Shown here: positions 1,739 to 19,270 of the stretch, one piece after another
Layout of the letters: each line of letters opens with the position of its first letter
Position numbering within the stretch: the first letter of the stretch is position 1
Source of the DNA: a virus
Direction: 5' to 3' (one strand)
Length of the DNA stretch: 33,753 bases
Virus genome (UHGV): UHGV-0114643
Made by a program: the position numbers and the translations under genes
Notes under the pieces: generated by a model
What the model was told of the DNA's origin: nothing
Database searches by the model: none
What the model saw: only the letters and a program-made list of their open reading frames with translations

Positions 1739-1990
1739 ATGGCTACTATCCACGCAACTGTTAACAATTTTGGCTTCCACGTATTAGATGTTAAATTCGA
1801 TATGGTTGGAACTGGTGATGTTTTTGATATGGTTGATATGTGTCTGAAAGCAACTATTCAGGATTATAATCAGTCTGAGTGGTTCTGGAAAGAAGTTAAA
1901 CAAGAAGTCTTAAAGGATGGCATATCCTCTTATTATTGGGGTGATTCTCTTATCACGCTTTACTATGAAGTTGATGGCTTCAATAACTAA
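1739..1990 (+). CDS. hypothetical protein, 83 aa
   Basis: ORF in track preceded by leader/SD. Confidence 0.5.
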   Translation: MATIHATVNNFGFHVLDVKFDMVGTGDVFDMVDMCLKATIQDYNQSEWFWKEVKQEVLKDGISSYYWGDSLITLYYEVDGFNN

Positions 1991-2030
1991 CAAGTCGCCG
2001 CAACGGGGCAAATAGCCCCAGACACCTTTA

Positions 2031-2055
2031 CAGCCCCTTAGATGGGGCTTTTTAC
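2031..2055 (+). terminator. rho-independent terminator (AGCCCC-TTAGAT-GGGGCT + TTTTT); a second GC hairpin lies at 2004-2018
   Basis: Inverted repeat followed by T-run, 40 nt after the stop of the last + strand small gene. Confidence 0.6.
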
Positions 2056-3560
2056 GTCTTCCTAGAATCTTACCAGACATTTAGAACAATAACTCTATAG
2101 CTTACTCTATATCCTCTTATCAAATCAACTTAAATATAAGCCCATAACCCGAAAGGGAAGGGCAATCCCTAAAACGCTCTATAACGCTCTATACGGGCTT
2201 ATCATCTCATCTTAAGCAATCATATTAACCACTTCTTAAAAGCCCTTTATAGAGCTTTCTAGAGCCTTAAAAGAATCTTATAAGGGTATAAGCTTTATTA
2301 TCTCGTTAGTATCTTGTGAATAGTTAAACAGGGGCTTGAAAGTTACTTAATAATGTGTTATGGAGACTAAAAAGAGCTTAAAAGTAACGTAAAAGTTAGC
2401 CCCCTTTACATTCTCTTAACAAAATCTTAACAAATGCAACATAGTTATGCTTATTAGAGACTTGTTAGCCCCTTGTTAAATCCTTGTTAGATGTATGTTA
2501 AAAGCTTGTTAGACACTTTGAAGTCCCTGTATAAGCCCCTAGAAAGCCCTATAAAGAGCTATACAGGTAGTTGGTGTGTAGTTACTAGGGAGAACCTTAG
2601 AAGAGGCTATACAGAGCTATATAGAGCTTTTAAGAGGGCTTTATAGAGAATCACTAAGAAGCATAGGGAACGATAAGAGAAGAGATAGTGACCATGTTAA
2701 TAGCTTGTTAAAAAGGTTAAACACTTGTTAGAGCCTTGTTAATTATCTTAACAAAATAACTCTTAAGATTTAACTATTTAGCAACTTATAAGCAACTTGT
2801 TAGATTCTTGTAAGTACTGTTAAACTCTTGTTACACCCTTGTTAGTTCTGTTAAGAAACTGTTAAGACCTTTGAAGAGATGTTAAGAGCTTGGGAGAGTT
2901 GTTAAGAGATTGTTAATGATATTTTAAGATTTTGCAAAGGGGATGTTACAGGGCTGTTAAGGGCTACCAAGCAGATATACACCCATGAGGTAGATTCTAC
3001 CGAATCCACTAGTAGATATTTTTCAGACTCTCCAAAGACCCTAAAAGTAACCTACCTAGTCTATTTTATAAAAATTTTATAGAACTGAATAACTATCTAT
3101 ACACTATCTTATATAAAACAGGAATTAACAGGCTTATAAGAGACCTTGTTAGTACCGTGTTAGACCTTGTAGGATAAGCCTTTACAGGGAATACCTGTTT
3201 AGTGTTATATAACAGTCTATATAGAGGCTTAGTAATACCTAGTGATTCTGCTATATAGGGTACTATCTTGGACATAGAGATTAAGATGGGTATAGGGGCT
3301 TCTAAGGGGCTAGAAAGAGGTTAGGAAGGTGATTGTATAGGGTTGATTAATGGTAGGCTTAGAAGGCTTTATAGAGGGCTATATAGAGAGCACTATTTAG
3401 AGACTAAGAGGCTATATAGATACTATATAATACTATATAGAGATGATGCTTAGAGAGGGTGTTTAGAAGGGTATAGATATTTTATCACATATCATGGTGA
3501 CCCAAGATGAACGGAGTGAATCCCAAATTTTATAAAAATATAAATTTCGTAAATTTTACT
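2056..3560. repeat. 1.5-kb non-coding repeat-dense region with two short-repeat families (TGTTAAG/CTTGTTAG and [G]CTATA[T/C]AGAG)
   Basis: No credible ORF on either strand; more than 20 copies of TGTTAA[G] in 2400-2960; TATAGAG-type copies in 2160-2660 and 3340-3460. Confidence 0.7.
2985..3008. repeat. 24-bp direct repeat copy 1 (ATGAGGTAGATTCTACCGAATCCA) containing the 13-bp palindrome GGTAGA-T-TCTACC
   Basis: Read directly; 22 of 24 identical to copy 2 at 3576-3599. Confidence 0.7.
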
Positions 3561-3611
3561 CAATAAAAAGCCCCTATGAGATAGATTCTATCGAATCCAT
3601 TTTAAGGGGCT
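3561..3611 (-). terminator. candidate intrinsic terminator for the - strand operon (AGCCCCT ... AGGGGCT stem, then T-run on the - strand)
   Basis: 7-bp inverted repeat around a 29-nt loop, followed on the - strand by TTTTTATT, 9 nt after the stop of the last - strand gene. Confidence 0.4.
3576..3599. repeat. 24-bp direct repeat copy 2 (ATGAGATAGATTCTATCGAATCCA) containing the palindrome GATAGA-T-TCTATC
   Basis: Read directly; its two differences from copy 1 are compensatory within the palindrome. Confidence 0.7.
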
Positions 3612-3619
3612 GTATAGTT

Positions 3620-4285
3620 TTACATCACTTCACTAAGCATAGTTTGCAATGAAGTTTTAGAAGTCTGGAAGAAGTGTGTGAACCCATTATGACGTTCTCT
3701 TACCTGAATCATTATCTGGTCACCCTTAATTGGGTGTGAACTAATATGGTATTCATTCATGTTCAGTACAGCACCCAAACCATCTATAATGTGTCTGAGT
3801 ATGTCATATTCAACAAATTCTTCTTTACCTGTGACCTTGATACAAACACCTTTGTTGGTTCTCTTAGGGTTTATATCTTCCATAACCAGCATTTGTTGTC
3901 CACCAAGAGAAATCATAGAGAACTCTTTACGGTTCTGCTGCTTAACATACATCTCAAGTTTCTTCAAAGTATCTTCATAGAACGGATAAGACTTCTTGAC
4001 AAAGACACCTTCAAGTGGCTCTTTACCTGAGTCTTCTCGTTCCATCTTAAGTCGATTAACAAGTAATTCTAAAGACCACTTCTCACTTTCATCAAGATAT
4101 GTATTGATATCATCTAGACTCAGTACCAGATACCTTCTTTCAAGTTCAAACTTTTTCATCTCTATCAAATCCTTAAAGCATTTCTTAGTAATTGCTTCCC
4201 ATTCTTCGGAGTTCTTTCTCTTCCTCTTCAGATGGGGAACCATATCTGTTAAGTTCTTCCAACTCTTCTTCAGTAGGTGTCCCAT
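3620..4285 (-). CDS. hypothetical protein (~221 aa); start uncertain (ATG 4285 or GTG 4291)
   Basis: ORF in track; position 4291 is GTG; ATGA-type overlap with upstream gene. Confidence 0.5.
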   Translation of the reverse strand: MGHLLKKSWKNLTDMVPHLKRKRKNSEEWEAITKKCFKDLIEMKKFELERRYLVLSLDDINTYLDESEKWSLELLVNRLKMEREDSGKEPLEGVFVKKSYPFYEDTLKKLEMYVKQQNRKEFSMISLGGQQMLVMEDINPKRTNKGVCIKVTGKEEFVEYDILRHIIDGLGAVLNMNEYHISSHPIKGDQIMIQVRERHNGFTHFFQTSKTSLQTMLSEVM

Positions 4286-4287
4286 AA

Positions 4288-4752
4288 TCACATTTCAAGT
4301 TTATAATCCATCGTTTTACCATAGCCCACAATGAAGCCTTCATACGTAATCAACCAATTACCTAGACATGAGAAGACAGAGTTCACTTCAGCTTCAACCA
4401 TAGCACCTTCAAACCCACAGTTTGGTACTTCCCTGTCTACCCTGATAGTTGCTACGACGAACCCCGTCTTAACATCTTTAACAAGGTACATTGTGTTTGT
4501 TTTAATGATGCTTTCGTGTTCTTGTTCACGTAAATCATGTGGTGCTAACAAGTCTTTATCGGCTTGTAAGTTGGACTCTGAAAAAGCTGCATGAACCATG
4601 TAAGCTTCTGAACACTCCCAGATAAAGCTATGTAGAAGAACCTTTGCAGCATGTCTTGAACAACCAAATTCTGCAACGATATCTTTGTACATATCATCTT
4701 TAGTTCCATTGTTAAGTAGAGCTTTACGTACTACCTCTTTAACACTCTTCAT
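4288..4752 (-). CDS. hypothetical protein (~154 aa); start moved to the ATG with an AGGA 8 nt upstream
   Basis: ORF in track; track start overlapped the upstream gene by 65 nt. Confidence 0.5.
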   Translation of the reverse strand: MKSVKEVVRKALLNNGTKDDMYKDIVAEFGCSRHAAKVLLHSFIWECSEAYMVHAAFSESNLQADKDLLAPHDLREQEHESIIKTNTMYLVKDVKTGFVVATIRVDREVPNCGFEGAMVEAEVNSVFSCLGNWLITYEGFIVGYGKTMDYKLEM

Positions 4753-13936: not shown

Positions 13937-14016
13937 CTCCGTTTAGCTCAGTTTGGTTTAGCAGCACTTGCTTTGGGAGCAAGGGGTCGAGGGTTCAAAT
14001 CCTTCAACGGAGACCA
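13937..14016 (+). tRNA. tRNA-Pro (anticodon TGG), CCA encoded
   Basis: 7-bp acceptor stem CTCCGTT/AACGGAG, T-arm GAGGG-TTCAAAT-CCTTC, anticodon loop TTTGGGA. Confidence 0.8.
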
Positions 14017-14022
14017 AATTAT

Positions 14023-14100
14023 ATTCCCGTAGACAAATTAGGTAAAGTCAACACCCTTTCAAGGTGTGGTTTGAGGGTTCAAGTCCCTTCGGGAATGCCA
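14023..14100 (+). tRNA. tRNA-Glu (anticodon TTC), CCA encoded
   Basis: Perfect acceptor stem ATTCCCG/CGGGAAT, T-arm, anticodon loop CTTTCAA. Confidence 0.85.
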
Positions 14101-14107
14101 GTTTTGA

Positions 14108-14177
14108 CAGAAGACCAATTACAGCAAACAAACTTTTCAATTTCGCGCATAGAAATCCAAAAAAGATTTGGTCTGGT
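14108..14177 (+). repeat. inter-tRNA element a (CAGAAGACC ... GGTCTGGT family); candidate small structured RNA
   Basis: Shares 5' (CAGAAGACC-N-ACAGCAA) and 3' (GGTCTGGT) ends with three other spacers; terminal 5-bp helix AGACC/GGTCT. Confidence 0.6.
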
Positions 14178-14187
14178 CATTAAGAAT

Positions 14188-14264
14188 TGCGGGTATAGAG
14201 AAAGGGTGTCTCACATGTCTCATTAGCATGTTATCGGTAGGTTCGACTCCTACACCCGCCTCCA
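14188..14264 (+). tRNA. tRNA with CAT anticodon (Met, fMet or Ile2), atypical (U1:C72 mismatch, U at position 37)
   Basis: Acceptor TGCGGGT/ACCCGCC, T-arm GTAGG-TTCGACT-CCTAC, anticodon arm CATGT-CTCATTA-GCATG, CCA encoded. Confidence 0.55.
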
Positions 14265-14270
14265 AATTTA

Positions 14271-14336
14271 CAGAAGACCGTTTACAGCAAACACTTAAAA
14301 TTTTTTATAGGAAAAAATGAAAAGATACGGTCTGGT
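14271..14336 (+). repeat. inter-tRNA element b (CAGAAGACC ... GGTCTGGT family)
   Basis: Direct repeat of the element termini. Confidence 0.6.
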
Positions 14337-14347
14337 AATACTAATAT

Positions 14348-14424
14348 GGTTAGGAAGCACATAAGGCATGTGCGGTCGGCTGTTAACCGAATGGTACAGG
14401 GTTCGAATCCCTGACTAACCGCCA
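14348..14424 (+). tRNA. tRNA-Asn (anticodon GTT)
   Basis: Acceptor GGTTAGG/ACTAACC, D-stem GCAC/GTGC, anticodon loop CTGTTAA, T-arm CAGGG-TTCGAAT-CCCTG, CCA encoded. Confidence 0.8.
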
Positions 14425-14493
14425 AGATTTGGGAGAGAAGTGATTGCTCACCGATTTGTAAGGTGCAAGTCCTTAGCCTGAATAGAATAAAAT

Positions 14494-14581
14494 GCGTCGT
14501 TATCCCGTAGATGGAAGCGGTGGTGACTGTAAATCACTTGTCATTATGACTCGGTAGGTTCGACTCCTTCACGGCGCACCA
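14494..14581 (+). tRNA. tRNA-Tyr (anticodon GTA), long variable arm
   Basis: Acceptor GCGTCGT/ACGGCGC, anticodon arm GGTGA-CTGTAAA-TCACT, variable-arm hairpin, T-arm, CCA encoded. Confidence 0.8.
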
Positions 14582-14587
14582 AATAAA

Positions 14588-14664
14588 GGTTATGTAGTTT
14601 AACTGGTCAAAATACCTCCCTGTCACGGAGGATGATGAGGGTTCGAATCCCTTCGTAACCGCCA
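14588..14664 (+). tRNA. tRNA-Asp (anticodon GTC)
   Basis: Acceptor GGTTATG/CGTAACC, D-stem GTTT/AAAT, anticodon arm CCTCC-CTGTCAC-GGAGG, T-arm GAGGG-TTCGAAT-CCCTT, CCA encoded. Confidence 0.85.
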
Positions 14665-14725
14665 AATTTGAGAGGGCTTGTTAGCCCCTCCCTTAAAGAG
14701 TTCTTACGAGTATTCTTTAAAGGAG

Positions 14726-14800
14726 CAGAAGACCAAATACAGCAAGCAATTTTAATATTTCAAGCCAATTTAATTTGAAAAATTTAAAACTTGGTCTGGT
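14726..14800 (+). repeat. inter-tRNA element c (CAGAAGACC ... GGTCTGGT family)
   Basis: Direct repeat of the element termini. Confidence 0.6.
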
Positions 14801-14813
14801 TCCAACAATTTTA

Positions 14814-14940
14814 CAGAAGACCGTTTACAGCAAACAATAAACAATCTATTTCTCTGGTAAAGAAAAGGCGAAGGTTCGATTCCTTCACACGTTACGGCGT
14901 GTTGGTGTAATGGAAGCACTTAAGATAAATACGGTCTGGT
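14814..14940 (+). repeat. inter-tRNA element d (127 nt) with internal T-arm mimic (GAAGG-TTCGATT-CCTTC) and D-arm-like hairpin; candidate Y-RNA-like ncRNA
   Basis: Same termini as a-c; tRNA-like motifs present but no acceptor stem pairing, so not a tRNA. Confidence 0.5.
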
Positions 14941-15089
14941 AATCCTCTTTGCAGTGACTTATGGAGCTAATATGTCGTCCCATGAGTGCCGATGAGTTTC
15001 TTGAGCATGATTCTAGATTAGCTTACTAAGAGACAACTCTACAAACCCTTTAGCAAGGTTTGCGTAGGTTACTGCAAAGATGATTTAAT

Positions 15090-15165
15090 GGAAGTGTAGC
15101 AGAATGGTGATGCGGCAGACTTTTAATCTGACAGGCGACGGGTTCGAATCCCTCCACTTCTACCA
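15090..15165 (+). tRNA. tRNA-Lys (anticodon TTT)
   Basis: Acceptor GGAAGTG/CACTTCT, anticodon loop CTTTTAA, T-loop GGGTTCGAATCCC, CCA encoded. Confidence 0.8.
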
Positions 15166-15246
15166 AATTCGCCCCTTAACTGAAGAACACATGCGCGGCT
15201 GGAAACACCCACTCAATCAGTTCTCTACAAAGGGGCAACTTATAAT

Positions 15247-15323
15247 GGTTCAGTCGCAGATAAGGTAATGCAAGGGTTTCATAAGCCCTATGAATGTGGG
15301 TTCGATTCCCACCTGAACCTCCA
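15247..15323 (+). tRNA. tRNA-Met (anticodon CAT; could be initiator or Ile2)
   Basis: Perfect acceptor GGTTCAG/CTGAACC, anticodon arm AGGGT-TTCATAA-GCCCT, T-arm GTGGG-TTCGATT-CCCAC, CCA encoded. Confidence 0.8.
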
Positions 15324-15325
15324 AT

Positions 15326-15400
15326 TGTGGGTTAGCATAAATGGTAATGCAAACGGCTGATAACCGTTAGAAGAGGGTTCGATACCCTCACCTACAACCA
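15326..15400 (+). tRNA. tRNA-Ile (anticodon GAT)
   Basis: Acceptor TGTGGGT/ACCTACA, D-stem GCAT/ATGC, anticodon arm AACGG-CTGATAA-CCGTT, T-arm GAGGG-TTCGATA-CCCTC, CCA encoded. Confidence 0.85.
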
Positions 15401-15414
15401 ATTTCATAAAGTTG

Positions 15415-15443
15415 TTGACATTCAGATGTGACCACTTTAAGAT
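15415..15443 (+). promoter_or_regulatory. internal promoter-like element (TTGACA-N17-TAAGAT) inside the tRNA array
   Basis: Exact -35, 17-nt spacer, 4/6 at -10. Confidence 0.35.
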
Positions 15444-15676
15444 AACCTTAGTTTTCGTTAGCGTAGCGTCTATTTTAAAAACTTAAAAATAAATGCAAAC
15501 GATAATGTTTTTCTGGCAGTAGCTTAATAGGCTAAACACCAGCAGGGTATTCCAACTCCCTGTTAAAGAATTTGGCGTACTAGCCCACGGTATGATTAAT
15601 AAAGTGGGCAATATTCTAAAGAGCATCCCTTAAGGGGCTTGGCTTAAATGCAATGAGTGCTCTTTAAAATATTAAT

Positions 15677-15752
15677 GCTCCGTTAGTCTAAAGGATAGGC
15701 AACTGTCTTCTAAACAGTTCATATATAGGTTCGAGTCCTATACGGAGTGCCA
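15677..15752 (+). tRNA. tRNA-Arg (anticodon TCT)
   Basis: Acceptor GCTCCGT/ACGGAGT, D-stem GTCT/AGGC, anticodon arm ACTGT-CTTCTAA-ACAGT, T-arm ATAGG-TTCGAGT-CCTAT, CCA encoded. Confidence 0.85.
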
Positions 15753-15813
15753 ATTCTAATGGTCAAGACAACACGAGTAAGTTATCTTAGATACGCGTTA
15801 AGAGATAAACGAA

Positions 15814-15881
15814 AGTCGGAAAGTTGCTGAAGGGTAGCTCCCTTCGATAGTAAGTAGGTTCGACTCCTACCTTGACTGCCA
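15814..15881 (+). tRNA. tRNA-like element, probably degenerate or interrupted (canonical T-arm and 3' end with CCA, but no D-arm; a perfect 5' acceptor partner GGTCAAG lies at 15761-15767)
   Basis: T-arm GTAGG-TTCGACT-CCTAC and 3' strand CTTGACT-G-CCA; only 65 nt from the nearest 5' partner, 118 nt from the perfect one. Confidence 0.3.
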
Positions 15882-16046
15882 AATAGTTAGCAGATTACTA
15901 CGACGACCTTTATGGGTCTCCGCATTGACTTGAAAGAGTCAATCTCATAAGGAGGTGGTCTGTATCTCATGTTTTCCAGAACATGTAAATAATCTGAGAA
16001 GAAGCTTGACAGTGTTGAGATAACAGGGTAAGCTTCGAAATATAGT

Positions 16047-16129
16047 ATGGGACGATGTTAAGACACTAAGGCATGTGCGTAAGCCTCCAAAACTTACTCA
16101 AAGGGGTTCGAATCCTCCGTCCCATGCCA
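16047..16129 (+). tRNA. atypical tRNA, candidate tRNA-Trp (CCA inside a 9-nt anticodon loop CCUCCAAAA; D region ~7 nt too long)
   Basis: Perfect acceptor ATGGGAC/GTCCCAT, T-loop GGGGTTCGAATCC, CCA encoded; Trp is the only amino acid otherwise missing from the array. Confidence 0.45.
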
Positions 16130-16142
16130 AAGTCTTATTAGG

Positions 16143-16230
16143 GGTAGGTAGCGGCTAATGGAAGCCAAACTGTCTTGAAAACAGTTGCCATTGTAGAGAT
16201 ACGGTGAGGGTTCGACTCCTTTATCTACCG
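16143..16230 (+). tRNA. tRNA-Ser (anticodon TGA), long variable arm; 3' CCA not encoded (CCT follows)
   Basis: Acceptor GGTAGGT/ATCTACC, anticodon arm ACTGT-CTTGAAA-ACAGT, 20-nt variable arm, T-arm GAGGG-TTCGACT-CCTTT. Confidence 0.75.
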
Positions 16231-16485
16231 CCTAATAAGATTTAAAGCTGAGACTCGCTGTTCGGGCAAGTGTTTCAGGTTTCCTCTTCGTGTATTGGCG
16301 TACACGGCACTGGTAAAACACCTAGTAGGTGTCACGGAGAAGAGATAGTATCAAGCTCTCCAAAGGTTCTAGTCACCGGATTAAACAAGACTATGCAAAG
16401 GCCAATAGGTCTTTTTAGAGAATTGTTAAGATGTTTAATACCATTGTTGCTTTGGTGTCTTAGCAGTTCTCTACAAAGATTTAAT

Positions 16486-16562
16486 GCACCTATAGCCCAA
16501 CTGGAAGAGGCAGCAGACTTAGAATCTGCTCAGTGTGAGTTCGAATCTCTCTAGGTGTACCA
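16486..16562 (+). tRNA. tRNA with Leu anticodon TAG, class-II-like D-arm but short variable loop
   Basis: Acceptor GCACCTA/TAGGTGT, anticodon arm GCAGA-CTTAGAA-TCTGC, discriminator A, CCA encoded. Confidence 0.7.
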
Positions 16563-16569
16563 AATTAAT

Positions 16570-16645
16570 GCAGGTGTAGCAAAATGGTTATGCGGCTGAC
16601 TCTTAATCAGTAAGACGATGGGTTCAATTCCCTCCACCTGTACCA
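16570..16645 (+). tRNA. tRNA-Lys (anticodon CTT)
   Basis: Acceptor GCAGGTG/CACCTGT, anticodon loop CTCTTAA, T-loop GGGTTCAATTCCC, CCA encoded. Confidence 0.8.
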
Positions 16646-16651
16646 AACAAT

Positions 16652-16727
16652 GGGGATGTAGTTTACATGGTTAAAACATAAGTTTTGCAAACTTAAGTAC
16701 AGGGTTCAATTCCCTGCTTCTCCACCA
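16652..16727 (+). tRNA. tRNA-Ala (anticodon TGC) with G3:U70 identity pair
   Basis: Acceptor GGGGATG/CTTCTCC, D-stem GTTT/AAAC, anticodon arm TAAGT-TTTGCAA-ACTTA, T-arm CAGGG-TTCAATT-CCCTG, CCA encoded. Confidence 0.85.
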
Positions 16728-16733
16728 ATTAGT

Positions 16734-16808
16734 GCATCCATAGTTTAAACGGGAAAATTACAGTCTTCCAAACTGAGGTTGAGGGTTCGATTCCCTCTGG
16801 ATGCTCCA
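16734..16808 (+). tRNA. tRNA-Gly (anticodon TCC)
   Basis: Perfect acceptor GCATCCA/TGGATGC, anticodon loop CTTCCAA, T-arm GAGGG-TTCGATT-CCCTC, CCA encoded. Confidence 0.85.
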
Positions 16809-16814
16809 AATAAT

Positions 16815-16890
16815 GCTCTTATCGTATAATTGGCTATTACGGTTGCCTTGTAAGCAACTTATCAGGGTTCGAATCCTTGTGGGAGCACCA
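16815..16890 (+). tRNA. tRNA-Thr (anticodon TGT)
   Basis: Acceptor GCTCTTA/TGGGAGC, anticodon arm GTTGC-CTTGTAA-GCAAC, T-arm CAGGG-TTCGAAT-CCTTG, CCA encoded. Confidence 0.85.
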
Positions 16891-16987
16891 ATTTTGAGGT
16901 CAAGTGAAAGACCGCTTGAGTCAACTGAAGACCGTAACAAATTCCACGGAGTTGAGTTAGCGGCACAGCTTCAGACCTCTTTTCAAA

Positions 16988-17062
16988 GCTCGCTTAGTTT
17001 ATATGGTAAAGCCCCATCCTTACAAGTTGGTGAAGAAGGTTCAAGTCCTTCAGCGAGTACCA
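16988..17062 (+). tRNA. tRNA-Val (anticodon TAC)
   Basis: Acceptor GCTCGCT/AGCGAGT, D-stem GTTT/AAGC, anticodon loop CTTACAA, T-arm GAAGG-TTCAAGT-CCTTC, CCA encoded. Confidence 0.75.
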
Positions 17063-17063
17063 A

Positions 17064-17141
17064 GTTCCAGTATCCCAATTGGCAGAGGATGCAAGCTCAA
17101 ACCTTGTATTAGTGACGGTTCGAATCCGTCTTGGAACACCA
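17064..17141 (+). tRNA. tRNA with Leu anticodon CAA, class-II-like D-arm (3-bp stem, CAATTGGCAGA loop) but short variable loop
   Basis: Acceptor GTTCCAG/TTGGAAC, anticodon arm GCAAG-CTCAAAC-CTTGT, T-arm GACGG-TTCGAAT-CCGTC, discriminator A, CCA encoded. Confidence 0.7.
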
Positions 17142-17156
17142 AATTAGGAGATTCCT

Positions 17157-17369
17157 ATGAAGCCTTATGGTAGACATGGTAAAGTTGAAATTGCAAGTTG
17201 TGGTTGCTGTGCTTCTCACGATGGTGAAGAAGATTACTACAAGTGGCGTACAGACCATCGTAAACGCTTTCTCAGAAGAGATAAGAAGAAAGCTAGACAG
17301 GAATCTCGAAAGAATATTGCAGAATTAGTTCAAATGGATAGAACAGCAATCTACGAAGTTGTTTGTTAG
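17157..17369 (+). CDS. small basic Cys-containing hypothetical protein, 70 aa; last ~17 codons overlap tRNA-Arg
   Basis: ATG with AGGAGA 7 nt upstream; ORF in track; overlap makes the true extent uncertain. Confidence 0.35.
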   Translation: MKPYGRHGKVEIASCGCCASHDGEEDYYKWRTDHRKRFLRRDKKKARQESRKNIAELVQMDRTAIYEVVC

Positions 17370-17395
17370 GGGTTCGAATCCCTTATTCTGCACCA
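17319..17395 (+). tRNA. tRNA-Arg (anticodon ACG)
   Basis: Perfect acceptor GCAGAAT/ATTCTGC, D-stem GTTC/GAAC, anticodon arm GCAAT-CTACGAA-GTTGT, T-arm AGGGG-TTCGAAT-CCCTT, CCA encoded. Confidence 0.8.
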
Positions 17396-17413
17396 ATTTT
17401 AGAAGGTAATTAT

Positions 17414-17641
17414 ATGCGTAAACTCATTATTGAAAGGCATAAAGATGCTGACAAGATTGAAACAACACAAGTTGGGGACACTGACTTCATTCTTGTAGGT
17501 TGGAAATGTGACCCAATAGCAGCTATGAAGGTTGTTCATGGTTTTGCAGGAATTGAATTTAATCAAATCATATTTGAAACGCTATTACCAGAAAATCAGG
17601 ATACGTGTAATAACGCATATGTCCTGACAAGAGTTCGTTAG
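17414..17641 (+). CDS. hypothetical protein, 75 aa (paralogue A: MRKLIIERH ... DTCNNAYVLTRVR); start moved to the ATG with a proper RBS
   Basis: About 60% identical to 17686..17913; AGAAGG upstream of ATG. Confidence 0.5.
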   Translation: MRKLIIERHKDADKIETTQVGDTDFILVGWKCDPIAAMKVVHGFAGIEFNQIIFETLLPENQDTCNNAYVLTRVR

Positions 17642-17667
17642 GGGTTCGAATCCCTTATTCTGCACCA
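17633..17667 (+). pseudogene. tRNA 3' fragment (T-arm + acceptor 3' strand + CCA), identical to the 3' end of tRNA-Arg(ACG); duplication scar
   Basis: 30 of 31 nt identical to 17365-17395; no complementary 5' acceptor strand or D-arm upstream. Confidence 0.55.
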
Positions 17668-17685
17668 AATTTAAAAGGGTAACTT

Positions 17686-17913
17686 ATGTTTAAACTCATA
17701 GTTGAAAAACACCCAGAAGATGACAAGCTTGAAACAGGGAGATTTGGAGATACTTTCTTTATCAGAGTTGGCTGGAAAGCTGACCCATTAGAAGTTAGAA
17801 AGATTGTCTACAACTTTGCTGGTTTGGAATTAAAGCAAGTCATCTTTGAAACAATGTTGCCAGAAAATAAAGATACATGCAATAACGCATATATTCTTAC
17901 AAGAGTTAGTTAG
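17686..17913 (+). CDS. hypothetical protein, 75 aa (paralogue B: MFKLIVEKH ... DTCNNAYILTRVS)
   Basis: ORF in track; AAGGG upstream; paralogous to 17414..17641. Confidence 0.5.
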   Translation: MFKLIVEKHPEDDKLETGRFGDTFFIRVGWKADPLEVRKIVYNFAGLELKQVIFETMLPENKDTCNNAYILTRVS

Positions 17914-17987
17914 GGGATTAGTTTACAAGGTTAAAACCTCGGTCTTTGAAATCGAAGAAGTTGGTTCAATTCCAACATCCCCCGCCA
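17912..17987 (+). tRNA. tRNA-Gln (anticodon TTG); starts inside the stop codon of the preceding ORF
   Basis: Acceptor AGGGGAT/ATCCCCC (A1:C72), D-stem GTTT/AAAC, anticodon arm TCGGT-CTTTGAA-ATCGA, T-arm GTTGG-TTCAATT-CCAAC, CCA encoded. Confidence 0.8.
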
Positions 17988-17989
17988 AT

Positions 17990-18068
17990 GCTCCATTACT
18001 CCAATTGGCAGAGAGGCCAGACTTAAAATCTGTGTTATGTATCGGTTCGAATCCGATATGGAGTACCA
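17990..18068 (+). tRNA. tRNA with Leu anticodon TAA, class-II-like D-arm but short variable loop
   Basis: Perfect acceptor GCTCCAT/ATGGAGT, D-arm CTC-CAATTGGCA-GAG, anticodon arm CCAGA-CTTAAAA-TCTGT, T-arm ATCGG-TTCGAAT-CCGAT, discriminator A, CCA encoded. Confidence 0.7.
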
Positions 18069-18074
18069 AATATT

Positions 18075-18150
18075 AGCAGTGTAGCATAACTGGCAATGCT
18101 CCAGCCTCTGAAGCTGAATGATTAAGGTTCAAATCCTTACGCTGCTGCCA
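18075..18150 (+). tRNA. tRNA-Gln (anticodon CTG)
   Basis: Acceptor AGCAGTG/CGCTGCT, D-stem GCAT/ATGC, anticodon loop CTCTGAA, T-arm TAAGG-TTCAAAT-CCTTA, CCA encoded. Confidence 0.8.
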
Positions 18151-18181
18151 CTTCTAAGGGTTCTTACGAGAGTCCTTAAAT

Positions 18182-18255
18182 GTGGCCTTATCATAAATGG
18201 ACAATGACCCATGCTGTGAACATGGTCTATACGGGTTCGATTCCCGTAGGTCACC
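18182..18255 (+). tRNA. tRNA-His (anticodon GTG); 3' tail reads C-CCCCA rather than N-CCA and no obvious G-1
   Basis: Acceptor GTGGCCT/AGGTCAC, perfect D-stem TCAT/ATGA, anticodon arm CCATG-CTGTGAA-CATGG, T-arm ACGGG-TTCGATT-CCCGT. Confidence 0.7.
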
Positions 18256-18267
18256 CCCCAATTCAAT

Positions 18268-18343
18268 AGCTCAATTAGCTTATATGGTTAAAGCGCGTGT
18301 CTGAAAAACATGAGAACAGGGTTCAAATCCCGATGGGCTACCA
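18268..18343 (+). tRNA. tRNA-Phe (anticodon GAA), acceptor/T-stem register ambiguous
   Basis: D-stem GCTT/AAGC, anticodon arm CGTGT-CTGAAAA-ACATG, T-loop GGGTTCAAATCCC, 3' ...ACCA. Confidence 0.6.
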
Positions 18344-18359
18344 ATTTTATAGGTGCATA

Positions 18360-19094
18360 ATGAAAGAGATGACAGAACAAGGTAAAGAGATTTTTGGTCT
18401 CCTTAAATCTGGTAACGGGTTCTCTAACCCTCTTATTACTGGTGCAGCAGTTCTTGGTGGTACTGTAGCTGCCTCTCAATCATTAGTTAACTCAATTAGT
18501 TCTGTAACAGACCCAGCTACACAACAGATTTTAGTTGCTGCTGGACTGACAACAGCCTTATTAGGAAGCTTCACAACAAGCCTTGGAAGGACAACTTCAA
18601 CGACAAGTACACTCACTGAGTATGGACAAAAGTCTGTAGATGAGTTTTCACAACGTATGCAAGTAGCTAAGGGTTACTCTAATGTTATGGGAGCAGCAGG
18701 TGAACAGGTTGGATGTACACCGTTTAGTGGTATCATGGGCGTAGCTACCGAGTACGGTAATAAAGCGATGGATTTGATTAATACCTCCATAGACGCTGTA
18801 AATAGCGTTCTAAGCGATTTGCAAGATGCAATCGACCAAGGACTAGATACAATCTCTGAACTCGCTACACAGGCCGTTACAGCGATTAATGAGGGTATTG
18901 CAAAGATTACTGCATATGCTAATGAAGTAACTCAGATGATTGCAGATGAAGCAGCACTGATTGCAGAATACCTGAAAACAAATATTAATGGTTTCCTTGC
19001 GAATGTTCTACCAAGCTGGTTTGATGATTCATGTAAAACTGGTGTGATTGACACTATCGCAACTCCAGAGATGAAAGAAGCTCTGAACAAATAA
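18360..19094 (+). CDS. hypothetical protein (~244 aa), Ala/Thr/Ser/Gly-rich with hydrophobic N-terminal segment; start moved downstream of the tRNA
   Basis: Track ORF began inside tRNA-Phe; ATG at 18360 has AGGTG upstream. Confidence 0.5.
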   Translation: MKEMTEQGKEIFGLLKSGNGFSNPLITGAAVLGGTVAASQSLVNSISSVTDPATQQILVAAGLTTALLGSFTTSLGRTTSTTSTLTEYGQKSVDEFSQRMQVAKGYSNVMGAAGEQVGCTPFSGIMGVATEYGNKAMDLINTSIDAVNSVLSDLQDAIDQGLDTISELATQAVTAINEGIAKITAYANEVTQMIADEAALIAEYLKTNINGFLANVLPSWFDDSCKTGVIDTIATPEMKEALNK

Positions 19095-19095
19095 C

Positions 19096-19188
19096 GGAAG
19101 ATTAACCCTAAAAGGTAAGGGAGCAGTTTGCTAAACTGCCAGTAACCGAGAAATCGGCGTACCAGTTCAAGTCTGGTATCTTCCTCCA
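19096..19188 (+). tRNA. tRNA-Ser (anticodon GCT), long variable arm
   Basis: Perfect acceptor GGAAGAT/ATCTTCC, 3-bp D-stem, anticodon arm GCAGT-TTGCTAA-ACTGC, T-arm ACCAG-TTCAAGT-CTGGT, CCA encoded. Confidence 0.8.
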
Positions 19189-19194
19189 AATTAT

Positions 19195-19270
19195 GTGTCG
19201 GTGTCAGAAATGGTTATGTCCCTGTCTGCAAAACAGGTTTATGAGGGTTCGAGTCCCTTCCGATACTCCA
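19195..19270 (+). tRNA. tRNA-Cys (anticodon GCA)
   Basis: Acceptor GTGTCGG/CCGATAC, anticodon arm CCTGT-CTGCAAA-ACAGG, T-arm GAGGG-TTCGAGT-CCCTT, CCA encoded. Confidence 0.8.

What the first reader, a model, noticed from the sequence alone, without database searches (positions are those of the whole stretch)
2985..3599. Two copies of a 24-bp element with compensatory changes preserving a 13-bp palindrome
ATGAGGTAGATTCTACCGAATCCA (2985-3008) and ATGAGATAGATTCTATCGAATCCA (3576-3599) differ at two positions. Both lie in the symmetric arms of the internal palindrome (GGTAGA-T-TCTACC versus GATAGA-T-TCTATC), so dyad symmetry is kept. This covariation implies selection on a hairpin or dimeric protein-binding site. 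The pair brackets the second repeat family and the second copy sits in the loop of the - strand terminator.
Basis: seen in the sequence. Interest (0 to 1): 0.55.

Follow-up and report, generated by a model that had tools for sequence, protein, structure and literature searches.

The report
Small hairpin cassettes in phage DNA
The two 24-base repeats are copies of a tiny hairpin-forming DNA cassette that has been inserted at several places in the non-coding end region of Felix-O1-like phages; its stem pairing is kept by selection, but its job is not yet known.

Summary
The 24-mers at 2985-3008 and 3576-3599 differ at two mirror positions of a 13-bp palindrome. The window is a Mooglevirus-like Ounavirinae phage. 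Both copies lie in its 1.6-kb non-coding stretch, which by homology also holds the ~570-bp direct terminal repeat (2399-2968).

In relatives, all copies at the first site carry G-C and all others A-T. That is one compensatory event. However, the element belongs to a wider family: 5'-ATGA, a perfect 5-6-bp stem of variable sequence, a short T-rich loop, then GAATC. About ten different stems keep complementarity: 98% of cells are paired, all five variable pairs show double changes, and 0 of 500 shuffles reach the score.

The cassettes are exact 24-28-bp insertions without target duplication. They occupy at least six sites, including both terminator loops and the inside of another cassette. Each site is filled or empty among close relatives, and some phages have none in this region.

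The first copy lies 16 nt outside the terminal-repeat boundary. It is 24/24 identical in an uncultured clade whose flanks are only 48-71% identical.

Best reading: a REP-like, duplicative hairpin element recognised as folded single-stranded nucleic acid. The mobilising or binding factor is unknown.

The parts
2985..3008 (+). Cassette copy 1 (site M): ATGA / GGTAGA-t-TCTACC / GAATC / CA
   Evidence: CM hit 39.5 bits, E=7e-8. It is an exact 24-bp insertion relative to HP1, Sf13, ESh19, Andreotti and Silverhawkium. It is 23-24/24 identical in an uncultured clade whose flanks are 48-71% identical.
3576..3599 (+). Cassette copy 2 (site R): ATGA / GATAGA-t-TCTATC / GAATC / CA, at the tip of the - strand terminator
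   Evidence: CM hit 38.9 bits. Relatives carry the same terminator with a plain 6-nt loop (GCCCCAATTAAGGGGC in Sf13, Sf17, 3HA14 and Silverhawkium).
3560..3611 (-). Intrinsic terminator of the 223-aa gene (3620-4291, - strand). Outer stem AGCCCCT/AGGGGCT, cassette in the loop, then a T-run
   Evidence: Fold -21.5 kcal/mol, z = -4.2. Annotated as a terminator in Michonne, Mordin and Moogle.
2032..2049 (+). Left terminator: an inverted copy of the same terminator module. Its loop is empty in this phage (site L)
   Evidence: (I21). SUSP2, fBSPA4, skuden, momo, JK55 and EP1 have a cassette in this loop, in inverted orientation.
2330..2342 (+). Empty insertion site B (AGGGGCT|TGAAAG, between 2336 and 2337)
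   Evidence: KMM4 has a 27-bp cassette exactly here, and the window matches the predicted empty junction 28/28. The site is also filled in Sf14, Sf19 and many Felixounavirus records.
2057..2079 (-). Possible decayed cassette remnant (site L2): CTGGTAAGATTCTAGGAAG on the - strand
   Evidence: EP1, skuden and two metagenome contigs have an intact cassette at the orthologous place, next to ...TTCTAAATGT. About 12/19 bases match, so this is weak and was judged by eye.
2399..2968 (.). Direct terminal repeat of the virion DNA, placed by homology. Site M starts 16 nt after its right boundary
   Evidence: The HP1 record annotates repeat_region 1-570 and 88766-89335, and these align to window 2399-2968. 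Several records start at window ~2399, and EcSzw_1 starts at ~2967. A related Felixounavirus has a 581-bp DTR by PhageTerm (PMC8303462).
2857..2981 (.). Most conserved non-coding block, spanning the right DTR boundary and lying just upstream of copy 1
   Evidence: This is the only part of the region that matches Erwinia and Hafnia Ounavirinae. With the M cassette it is also the only part shared with the uncultured clade.

Best explanation
The two 24-mers are paralogous copies of a miniature hairpin cassette. Its layout is 5'-ATGA, a 5-6-bp stem of free sequence, a 1-4-nt T-rich loop, GAATC, then 2-4 further nt.

Shown:
- The cassette has been copied into several places in the terminal non-coding region of Ounavirinae and of an uncultured relative clade.
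- Each copy is an exact 24-28-bp insertion with no target duplication.
- Stem complementarity is maintained by selection, while the foot (ATGA/GAATC) is invariant.

Inferred: the unit that matters is the folded hairpin on a single strand. That strand could be DNA exposed during replication, recombination or packaging, or it could be RNA. A protein would recognise the hairpin through its conserved foot. This is how bacterial REP elements and the hairpin ends of IS200/IS605 elements are recognised. Spread would occur by a copy-and-insert or gene-conversion process. Cassettes persist where a self-folding insert does no harm, such as terminator loop tips, other cassettes and spacer DNA.

At 3576-3599 the cassette simply rides in the terminator loop, and its own stem keeps that loop closed. 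At 2985-3008 it sits 16 nt outside the terminal-repeat boundary, where it may have acquired a secondary role.

The recognising or mobilising protein is not identified.
For: Family and covariation:
- Of 77 distinct ATGA-N9-24-GAATC strings in 424 kb of related DNA, 14 have at least 5 anchored Watson-Crick pairs; 0.08 are expected.
- A covariance-model search gave 81 hits and 26 distinct sequences.
No shuffle of 500 reaches it, and the slid controls are near 0.
- Stems seen: GATAGA, GGTAGA, GGATG, GGTTG, GGATAA, GATTAG, AGTAAT, AGGTAA, GGAT and TCTAAC.

Discrete insertions:
- Empty and filled junctions match exactly at site M (24 nt, 28/28) and site B (27 nt, 28/28; the window itself is the empty allele), and 27/28 at site A (27 nt).
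- A 28-nt cassette is nested inside another cassette.
- The identical 22-mer occurs in at least 6 different flank contexts. The site A and site B cassettes are 26/27 identical.

Dispensable and non-coding:
- No hit with E<=0.1 was found in this region of Sf13, 3HA14, Sf17, Andreotti or KhF3.
- 28 of 29 cassettes checked in 12 metagenome loci are intergenic; one lies in a doubtful 69-aa ORF. They occur in both orientations relative to genes.

Conserved foot:
- The foot can pair as AT/AT plus tandem G.A, or as GA/TC with a GAA bulge.

Parallel with REP elements (PMC3333891):
- REPs have a conserved tetranucleotide at the hairpin foot, stems that differ but keep complementarity, and required mismatches. 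They often occur as inverted pairs. L076 has such an inverted cassette pair 16 nt apart.
Against: - No mobilising enzyme is known. None of the 43 ORFs in this window has a Y1/HUH transposase or other nuclease-type Pfam domain that would explain mobility. To my knowledge Felix-O1-like phages are not reported to encode one; I did not test whole genomes.
- Copy number is low, at 0-5 per genome region. This is unlike bacterial REPs.
- The patchy filled/empty pattern could come from one old insertion per site, shuffled later by homologous recombination between phages. It need not reflect ongoing mobility.
- Different sites in one genome tend to carry different stems, and orthologous sites carry the same stem. 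The M copy in particular is extremely conserved. This looks more like old, functionally constrained elements than like recently transposed selfish copies.
- The covariation alignment was fitted to the structure by the covariance model, which favours pairing.
Confidence: 0.45

Rival explanations
1. Packaging or terminal-repeat processing signal. The copy at 2985-3008 would be a cis-acting hairpin used when concatemers are cut and the 570-bp terminal repeat is duplicated. A hairpin end has been proposed as a processing intermediate in T7 concatemers. The other copies would be by-products.
For: - The copy lies 16 nt outside the right DTR boundary.
- It is contiguous with the only non-coding block conserved out to Erwinia phages and to an uncultured clade.
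- It is 24/24 identical where flanks are 48-71% identical.
- The T7 hairpin model (Chung, Nardone and Hinkle 1990) is cited in PMC4281155 and PMC11482910.
Against: - The cassette is cleanly absent at this site in many viable close relatives. One is HP1, the phage whose DTR was annotated. Others are Michonne, Sf13, ESh19 and Felixounavirus members. It is also absent in the Erwinia phage.
- The same cassette type occurs in terminator loops and in other intergenic sites that have nothing to do with the ends.
Confidence: 0.2
2. RNA-level element. The hairpin would act in transcripts, for example to strengthen or protect the 3' end at the convergent terminators, or as a binding or processing site for an RNA-binding protein.
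For: - Two of the sites are terminator loops. With the cassette, the terminator folds as a two-tier hairpin of -21.5 kcal/mol.
- In the uncultured clade, 7 cassettes lie in the same sense as an adjacent gene: downstream of a stop (3-80 nt) at L061:5075, L064:3952, L045:6478, L047:2631 and L076:8192, or about 30 nt upstream of a start at L079:10217 and L042:11407.
- An AUGA-stem-GAA foot can form tandem G.A pairs, as in known RNA motifs (my own knowledge).
Against: - In the terminators, the mRNA carries the complement of the ATGA strand. There the foot becomes GAUUC...UCAU.
- Orientation relative to genes is mixed.
- Sites M, A and B have no terminator context, and no promoter-like site stands out in the non-coding region: 4 found against 6.5 expected.
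- There is no Rfam match with E<=1.
- Terminators without the cassette exist in close relatives.
Confidence: 0.15
3. Operator for a dimeric DNA-binding protein. The 13-bp palindrome would be read as double-stranded DNA by a symmetric regulator.
For: - The dyad is perfect in both copies.
- The arms of the M-type copy are invariant in more than 20 independent sequences.
Against: - Across the family the arms change freely (about ten stem sequences), and stem length and loop length also vary. The invariant parts are the asymmetric flanks ATGA and GAATC.
- A protein reading bases in the arms would not tolerate this.
- Cassettes sit in terminator loops and inside one another, not at promoters.
Confidence: 0.08
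4. Neutral leftovers. The copies would be relics of duplications in a repeat-rich, recombination-prone region, with palindromy inherited rather than selected.
For: - The region is full of other short direct and inverted repeats.
- The two terminators are inverted copies of each other, so gene conversion between them is expected.
- Decayed and truncated copies exist: ESh19, M719, and possibly window 2057-2079.
Against: - Inheritance alone cannot produce ten different perfectly paired stems between the same flanks. 14 strings have at least 5 anchored pairs, against 0.08 expected.
- It also cannot produce double changes at all five variable pairs.
- It cannot explain 24/24 identity amid 48-71% identical flanks.
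Confidence: 0.05

Closest known systems
REP / BIME elements of enterobacteria and their RAYT (TnpA-REP) Y1 nucleases
   Same: Both are short extragenic palindromes. Both have a conserved tetranucleotide at the 5' foot of the hairpin, stems that differ between copies but stay complementary, and conserved non-Watson-Crick features near the foot. Both occur near or in terminators and as inverted pairs. Both show insertion polymorphism between close relatives (REP features from PMC3333891).
   Different: - The foot is ATGA...GAATC, not GTAG.
- The cassettes are 22-28 nt, against 30-40 nt for REPs.
- There are a handful of copies per genome rather than hundreds.
- The host is a virulent phage, not a bacterial chromosome.
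- No RAYT-like gene was found in the window.
- The pattern is absent from the genome-contig collection (one genome per species) outside chance hits.
Hairpin ends of IS200/IS605 insertion sequences and their miniature derivatives (PATEs)
   Same: Both insert without target-site duplication. Both have a hairpin plus adjacent conserved single-stranded bases as the recognisable unit. Single-strand logic would explain tolerance of, or preference for, hairpin tips. The family properties come from my own knowledge and from PMC3333891 and PMC6006769 as listed.
   Different: - The unit here is a single hairpin, not two different ends.
- There is no transposase gene.
- No conserved target tetranucleotide is evident. 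The base before the cassette is always T or C, most often in CT, but nothing longer is shared.
PeSL (promoter-early stem-loop) mobile regulatory cassettes of T4-type phages
   Same: Both are short stem-loop-containing cassettes repeated in variable, non-coding parts of virulent phage genomes, and both are associated with mosaicism (my own knowledge; not checked in a paper here).
   Different: PeSLs carry an early promoter and are longer. No promoter is associated with the cassettes here.
Hairpin intermediate at the T7 concatemer junction
   Same: Both involve a hairpin-forming sequence close to a short direct terminal repeat in a phage that packages from concatemers (cited in PMC4281155 and PMC11482910).
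   Different: The cassette is dispensable at this site in many relatives. The same cassette also occurs far from the repeat boundary. No experimental end data exist for this phage.
Intrinsic (Rho-independent) terminators
   Same: Copy 2 is physically part of one.
   Different: The cassette is an optional insert in the loop. The G+C stem and T-run belong to the terminator, not to the cassette. Copy 1 has no G+C stem and no adjacent T-run.
Hammerhead ribozyme core (CUGAUGA-stem II-GAAA)
   Same: The layout AUGA-stem-GAA resembles the stem II junction with its tandem G.A pairs (my own knowledge).
   Different: The CUGA part is missing: the base at the essential G5 position is always a pyrimidine. 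GAA is followed by U, not A. There is no Rfam hit.

Membership tests
REP/BIME (RAYT-associated repetitive extragenic palindromes) | Conserved GTAG (or CGTC) tetranucleotide 5' of the hairpin foot | tested here: not met
   The foot is ATGA in 24 of 26 distinct sequences, and ATGG or ATGC in the other two. GTAG occurs only by chance, inside the stem of the M-type copy.
REP/BIME (RAYT-associated repetitive extragenic palindromes) | Imperfect palindrome whose stem varies between copies while keeping complementarity | tested here: met
   98.3% of cells are paired, and 5 of 5 variable pairs have double changes. About ten distinct stems were seen.
REP/BIME (RAYT-associated repetitive extragenic palindromes) | Strictly extragenic location | tested here: met
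   28 of 29 cassettes checked in 12 metagenome loci lie between ORFs; one sits in a doubtful 69-aa ORF. Both window copies are in the non-coding stretch.
REP/BIME (RAYT-associated repetitive extragenic palindromes) | High copy number (tens to hundreds per genome) | tested here: not met
   There are 2 copies in 33.7 kb of this genome and 0-5 per related locus.
REP/BIME (RAYT-associated repetitive extragenic palindromes) | A cognate Y1 (HUH) nuclease gene in the same genome | tested here: inconclusive
   No such Pfam domain was found among 43 ORFs of the window. The window is only about 38% of the genome, and the host was not examined.
IS200/IS605-type single-strand transposable element (or PATE derivative) | Insertion without target-site duplication | tested here: met
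   Exact empty junctions were found at sites M and B, and at site A with 27/28 matches, with no duplicated bases.
IS200/IS605-type single-strand transposable element (or PATE derivative) | Insertion 3' of a fixed tetra- or pentanucleotide target | tested here: inconclusive
   The upstream base is always a pyrimidine, often in CT, but no longer shared motif is seen.
IS200/IS605-type single-strand transposable element (or PATE derivative) | Two distinct subterminal hairpins (left and right ends) and a tnpA gene | tested here: not met
   Each unit has a single hairpin. No transposase domain was found in the window.
Intrinsic terminator | G+C-rich stem directly followed by a T-run on the transcribed strand | tested here: not met
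   The feature is met by the surrounding module at 3560-3611 but not by the cassette itself. Copy 1 has neither part, and empty terminators exist.
Hammerhead ribozyme | Conserved core CUGAUGA ... GAAA with three helices | tested here: not met
   There is no Rfam match with E<=1. The bases 5' of AUGA are variable pyrimidines, and GAA is followed by U.
T7-type terminal-repeat processing hairpin | Hairpin-forming sequence next to the terminal repeat that is required for concatemer processing | not testable with these tools
   The position is met, 16 nt from the boundary. The requirement cannot be tested here, and absence of the cassette in viable relatives argues against it.

The most novel reading that the evidence does not exclude
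These cassettes may be a previously undescribed class of ultra-small (22-28 bp) single-hairpin mobile elements native to virulent phage genomes. They would insert without target duplication, preferentially at hairpin tips, and would be mobilised by an as yet unknown phage or host single-strand nuclease. One copy, at site M (2985-3008), would have been co-opted next to the terminal-repeat boundary for concatemer processing. That would explain its perfect conservation across otherwise unalignable phages.
Probability: 0.2. Interest if true: 0.75.

Novelty: new variant of a known kind. Interest (0 to 1): 0.55.

Why it matters
Short repeated palindromes with a conserved foot are well known in bacterial chromosomes (REPs). 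There they structure the genome, stabilise mRNAs and are handled by domesticated transposases. I found no description of such elements for Felix-O1-like phages, nor any paper containing this sequence.

If the cassettes are a phage counterpart, several things follow:
- They would be among the smallest duplicative DNA units known.
- They would be a handle on how non-coding phage DNA is remodelled.
- They would mark the packaging-end region.
- They would point to an unidentified protein that recognises the hairpin.

Ounavirinae are widely used for Salmonella, E. coli and Citrobacter typing and therapy. Knowing which parts of the terminal non-coding region are dispensable (the cassettes) and which are conserved (the 125-nt boundary block) also helps genome engineering.

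If the cassettes are merely tolerated passengers, the finding is a tidy but modest piece of comparative genomics.

Tried and rejected
- Rfam scan of 1900-3800 on both strands at E<=1: nothing.
- Hammerhead-like reading of AUGA-stem-GAA: rejected, because the core is incomplete.
- tRNA T-arm reading of TCGAATCC: rejected. The model's weak hit at 14635-14649 is a real tRNA-Asp T-arm and is unrelated.
- Mini-ORF reading (ATG AGR TAG = Met-Arg-stop): rejected, because other cassettes lack the stop.
- Alternative hairpin GATTC-N4-GAATC: it is the minimum-energy fold in the - sense RNA.
- 'All copies point outward from the terminal repeat': this held for the isolates but failed in the uncultured clade.
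- The 591-bp spacing between the two copies resembles the repeat length, but it varies from 551 to 624 bp in relatives.
- Sigma-70 promoter scan: no enrichment.
- Host origin: the pattern scan of one genome per species gave only unrelated hits.
- IMG/VR scans returned few loci.
- Literature searches by sequence and by topic found nothing on this element.
- Pfam and PHROG scans of neighbouring genes gave only 'unknown function'.
- Target-site duplication or flanking microhomology at the insertion junctions: none consistent.
Full report
**1. The observation**

They are the only matches in the window with up to 3 mismatches, and 100 shuffles gave none. The repeat finder extends the repeat to 27 nt (D7).

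The two differences are G/A at the second arm position and C/T at its mirror. They turn a G-C pair of GGTAGA-T-TCTACC into the A-T pair of GATAGA-T-TCTATC.

The second copy lies in the loop of the terminator of the 223-aa - strand gene. The stem is AGCCCCT 3569-3575 with AGGGGCT 3605-3611, followed by a T-run on the - strand. The fold is -21.5 kcal/mol with z = -4.2. Three related records annotate a terminator there.

**2. Context**

The window is an Ounavirinae phage. The best match over 2000-3700 is Citrobacter phage BSwM KMM4 at 95.9%, followed by Michonne and Mordin at about 92%.

The copies lie in a ~1.6-kb stretch without genes, between convergent gene clusters. It is packed with 10-11-bp periodic repeats.

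By homology this stretch also contains the virion's direct terminal repeat:
- Citrobacter phage HP1 is deposited with a repeat_region at 1-570 and at 88766-89335. Its paper states that there are direct repeats at both termini (PMC9120918).
- HP1 1-570 aligns to window 2399-2968.
- Several independent records start at window ~2399, and one (EcSzw_1) starts at ~2967.
- A Felixounavirus was reported with a 581-bp DTR by PhageTerm (PMC8303462).

Copy 1 therefore starts 16 nt beyond the right boundary of the terminal repeat. Window 2857-2981, which spans that boundary, is the only part of the region still alignable with Erwinia and Hafnia Ounavirinae.

**3. What relatives show about the two variable positions**

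I examined 33 fetched phage loci and 23 related metagenome loci. Every copy at the first site (site M) is G-C. Every copy in a terminator loop or at the other sites is A-T. The one exception is an A.C copy in contig OMAY01000057.

On its own it is suggestive at best, with roughly a 1% chance by my arithmetic.

**4. The wider family**

Scanning for the flanks alone changed the picture. Between ATGA and GAATC, relatives carry quite different perfect palindromes:
- GATAGA/TCTATC
- GGTAGA/TCTACC
- GGATG/CATCC
- GGTTG/CAACC
- GGATAA/TTATCC
- GATTAG/CTAATC
- AGTAAT/ATTACT
- AGGTAA/TTACCT
- GGAT/ATCC
- TCTAAC/GTTAGA

Of 77 distinct ATGA-N9-24-GAATC strings in 424 kb, 14 have at least 5 Watson-Crick pairs anchored at the flanks. 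Shuffling predicts 0.08.

I built a covariance model from nine 22-nt variants. It found 81 matches with E<=0.1, of which 26 are distinct.
- 98.3% of cells form pairs.
- All five variable pairs show changes on both sides.
- The covariation score is 0.388, against 0.161 +/- 0.023 for shuffles; no shuffle of 500 reaches it.
- The slid-partner controls are near zero.

One caveat: the alignment was fitted to the structure by the model. The flank-only count does not share that bias.

The competing hairpin (GATTC-N4-GAATC) is the predicted fold of the - sense RNA.

The foot is invariant. It can pair either as A-T and T-A plus a tandem G.A, or as GA with TC leaving a GAA bulge.

**5. The cassettes are discrete insertions**

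- Site M. Moogle reads ACATC[ATGAGGTAGATTCTACCGAATCAA]CTAGAC. Andreotti and Silverhawkium have exactly ACATCCTAGAC, matching 28/28 around the junction.
- Site B. KMM4 carries a 27-nt cassette between AGGGGCT and TGAAAG. The window itself is the empty allele, at 2336|2337, matching 28/28.
- Site A. phiSUSP1 carries a 26/27-identical cassette at a third place, which is empty in Michonne and Mordin.
- Nested copy. In Moogle and vB_SflM_004 a 28-nt cassette sits inside another cassette.

No target duplication or consistent microhomology is seen.

The two terminators are inverted copies of one module (I21). Each exists with a plain 6-nt loop or with the cassette. This phage has the right loop filled and the left loop empty. 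SUSP2, fBSPA4 and skuden show the reverse, and EP1 has both filled.

The identical 22-mer occurs in at least six flank contexts. Site B is filled in many Felixounavirus records.

Sf13, 3HA14, Sf17, Andreotti and KhF3 have no intact cassette anywhere in this region. The element is therefore dispensable there.

28 of 29 cassettes checked in 12 metagenome loci are intergenic; the exception lies in a doubtful 69-aa ORF. They occur in both orientations relative to neighbouring genes.

**6. The first copy is special in one respect**

An uncultured group of phages shares only about 130 nt with Ounavirinae: the boundary block plus the M cassette. In that group the cassette is 24/24 identical to Moogle and VpaE1, and 23/24 to this window. 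The 70 columns to its left are 58-71% identical and the 40 columns to its right are 48-65% identical.

This means either very strong constraint or recent acquisition at the same site.

**7. Interpretation**

Shown:
- a hairpin whose pairing is selected
- an invariant asymmetric foot
- exact cassette boundaries without target duplication
- multiple sites, including hairpin tips
- dispensability in this region

Inferred: the element functions as a folded single strand recognised through its foot, and spreads duplicatively. It is tolerated where a self-closing insert is harmless.

This is the logic of REP elements and of IS200/IS605 hairpin ends. REPs have a conserved tetranucleotide at the foot, complementary but variable stems, required mismatches, and occur as inverted pairs (PMC3333891).

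It is not a member of either family:
- The foot is not GTAG.
- Copy number is low.
- There is a single hairpin per unit.
- No Y1/HUH gene is present among the window's 43 ORFs.

I put 0.45 on this reading. Against it stand the lack of any candidate enzyme, and the pattern 'one stem per site, conserved across genomes', which suits old functional elements.

Rivals:
- A role of the first copy in terminal-repeat processing, comparable to the hairpin intermediate proposed for T7: 0.2. It is weakened by clean absence in viable relatives, including HP1 itself.
- An RNA-level role at terminators or near gene ends: 0.15. It is weakened by mixed orientation, by the antisense orientation in both terminators, and by sites with no sign of transcription.
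- A dimeric double-stranded DNA operator: 0.08. It is contradicted by freely varying arms and asymmetric conserved flanks.
- Neutral leftovers: 0.05. This is contradicted.

**8. Novelty and verdict**

I found no paper containing the sequence or describing such repeats in these phages, and there is no Rfam family. The searched library is incomplete, so prior description cannot be excluded.

I class it as a new variant of a known kind: a REP-like miniature palindromic repeat, here in a virulent phage. Its alternative, a dimeric binding site, is disfavoured.

Interest is moderate at 0.55. The pattern is clean and testable, but the function is unresolved.

Noticed in passing
window 2399-2968: By homology with Citrobacter phage HP1 (repeat_region 1-570 and 88766-89335), and from the start points of several other records, this stretch is the ~570-bp direct terminal repeat of the virion DNA. 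The physical genome ends therefore lie inside the non-coding region.
   Followed up: partly
window 2449-2520, 2692-2745, 2795-2916, 3144-3164: A family of CTTGTTA(A/G) / CTGTTAAG motifs repeats at 11-bp (one helical turn) spacing, mostly inside the terminal repeat and densest just before its right boundary. These may be iterated protein-binding sites, for example for small terminase or an origin protein.
   Followed up: no
window 2528-2650 and 3358-3445: A second family, (G/A)GCTATA(T/C)AGAG, repeats at 10-bp spacing. There is one cluster inside the terminal repeat and one between the two cassette copies. Its function is unknown.
   Followed up: no
window 2857-2981: A 125-nt block spans the right terminal-repeat boundary. 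It is the only non-coding sequence still alignable with Erwinia and Hafnia Ounavirinae and with an uncultured clade. Shared motifs include GATATTTTAA, TTTTGCAAAGGGG and GGGCTACCAAGCAG. It is a candidate terminase recognition or cutting site.
   Followed up: partly
window 2026-2049 and 3603-3617: The terminators closing the two convergent gene clusters are inverted copies of one module (ACAGCCCCTTA...GGGGCT). Gene conversion between them is therefore possible.
   Followed up: partly
window 2918-2927 and 3015-3024: GATATTTTAA and AGATATTTTT form a short direct repeat on either side of the terminal-repeat boundary and the M cassette. AGATATTTTT is conserved in all relatives, whether the M site is filled or empty.
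   Followed up: no
window 13937-19270: ARAGORN finds a cluster of 25 tRNA genes on the + strand. The covariance model's weak hit at 14635-14649 is the T-arm of tRNA-Asp and is not a cassette.
   Followed up: partly
L021 (Moogle) 771-820; L027 (EP1) 708-757; L036 612-654; L045 4278-4324: Some cassettes have loops expanded by another complete cassette or by a further unrelated hairpin, giving nested palindromes. Hairpin tips appear to be preferred or tolerated insertion points.
   Followed up: partly
L076 8192-8254: Two different cassettes lie in inverted orientation 16 nt apart, between two + strand ORFs. The arrangement is reminiscent of REP doublets (BIME/REPIN).
   Followed up: no
GU169904.1 (Staphylococcus phage SA1) 135747-135799: A record labelled as a Staphylococcus phage holds Felix-O1-like sequence, including a filled site-B cassette at 90.6% identity. 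This is probably a chimeric or contaminated deposit.
   Followed up: no
L001 (Michonne) 3968-4168, corresponding to window ~2967-3170: Michonne annotates a 66-aa ORF with a ribosome-binding site in the stretch that corresponds to the M site. In this window the equivalent ATG at 2985 is followed by a stop after two codons, so that ORF is probably not real.
   Followed up: no
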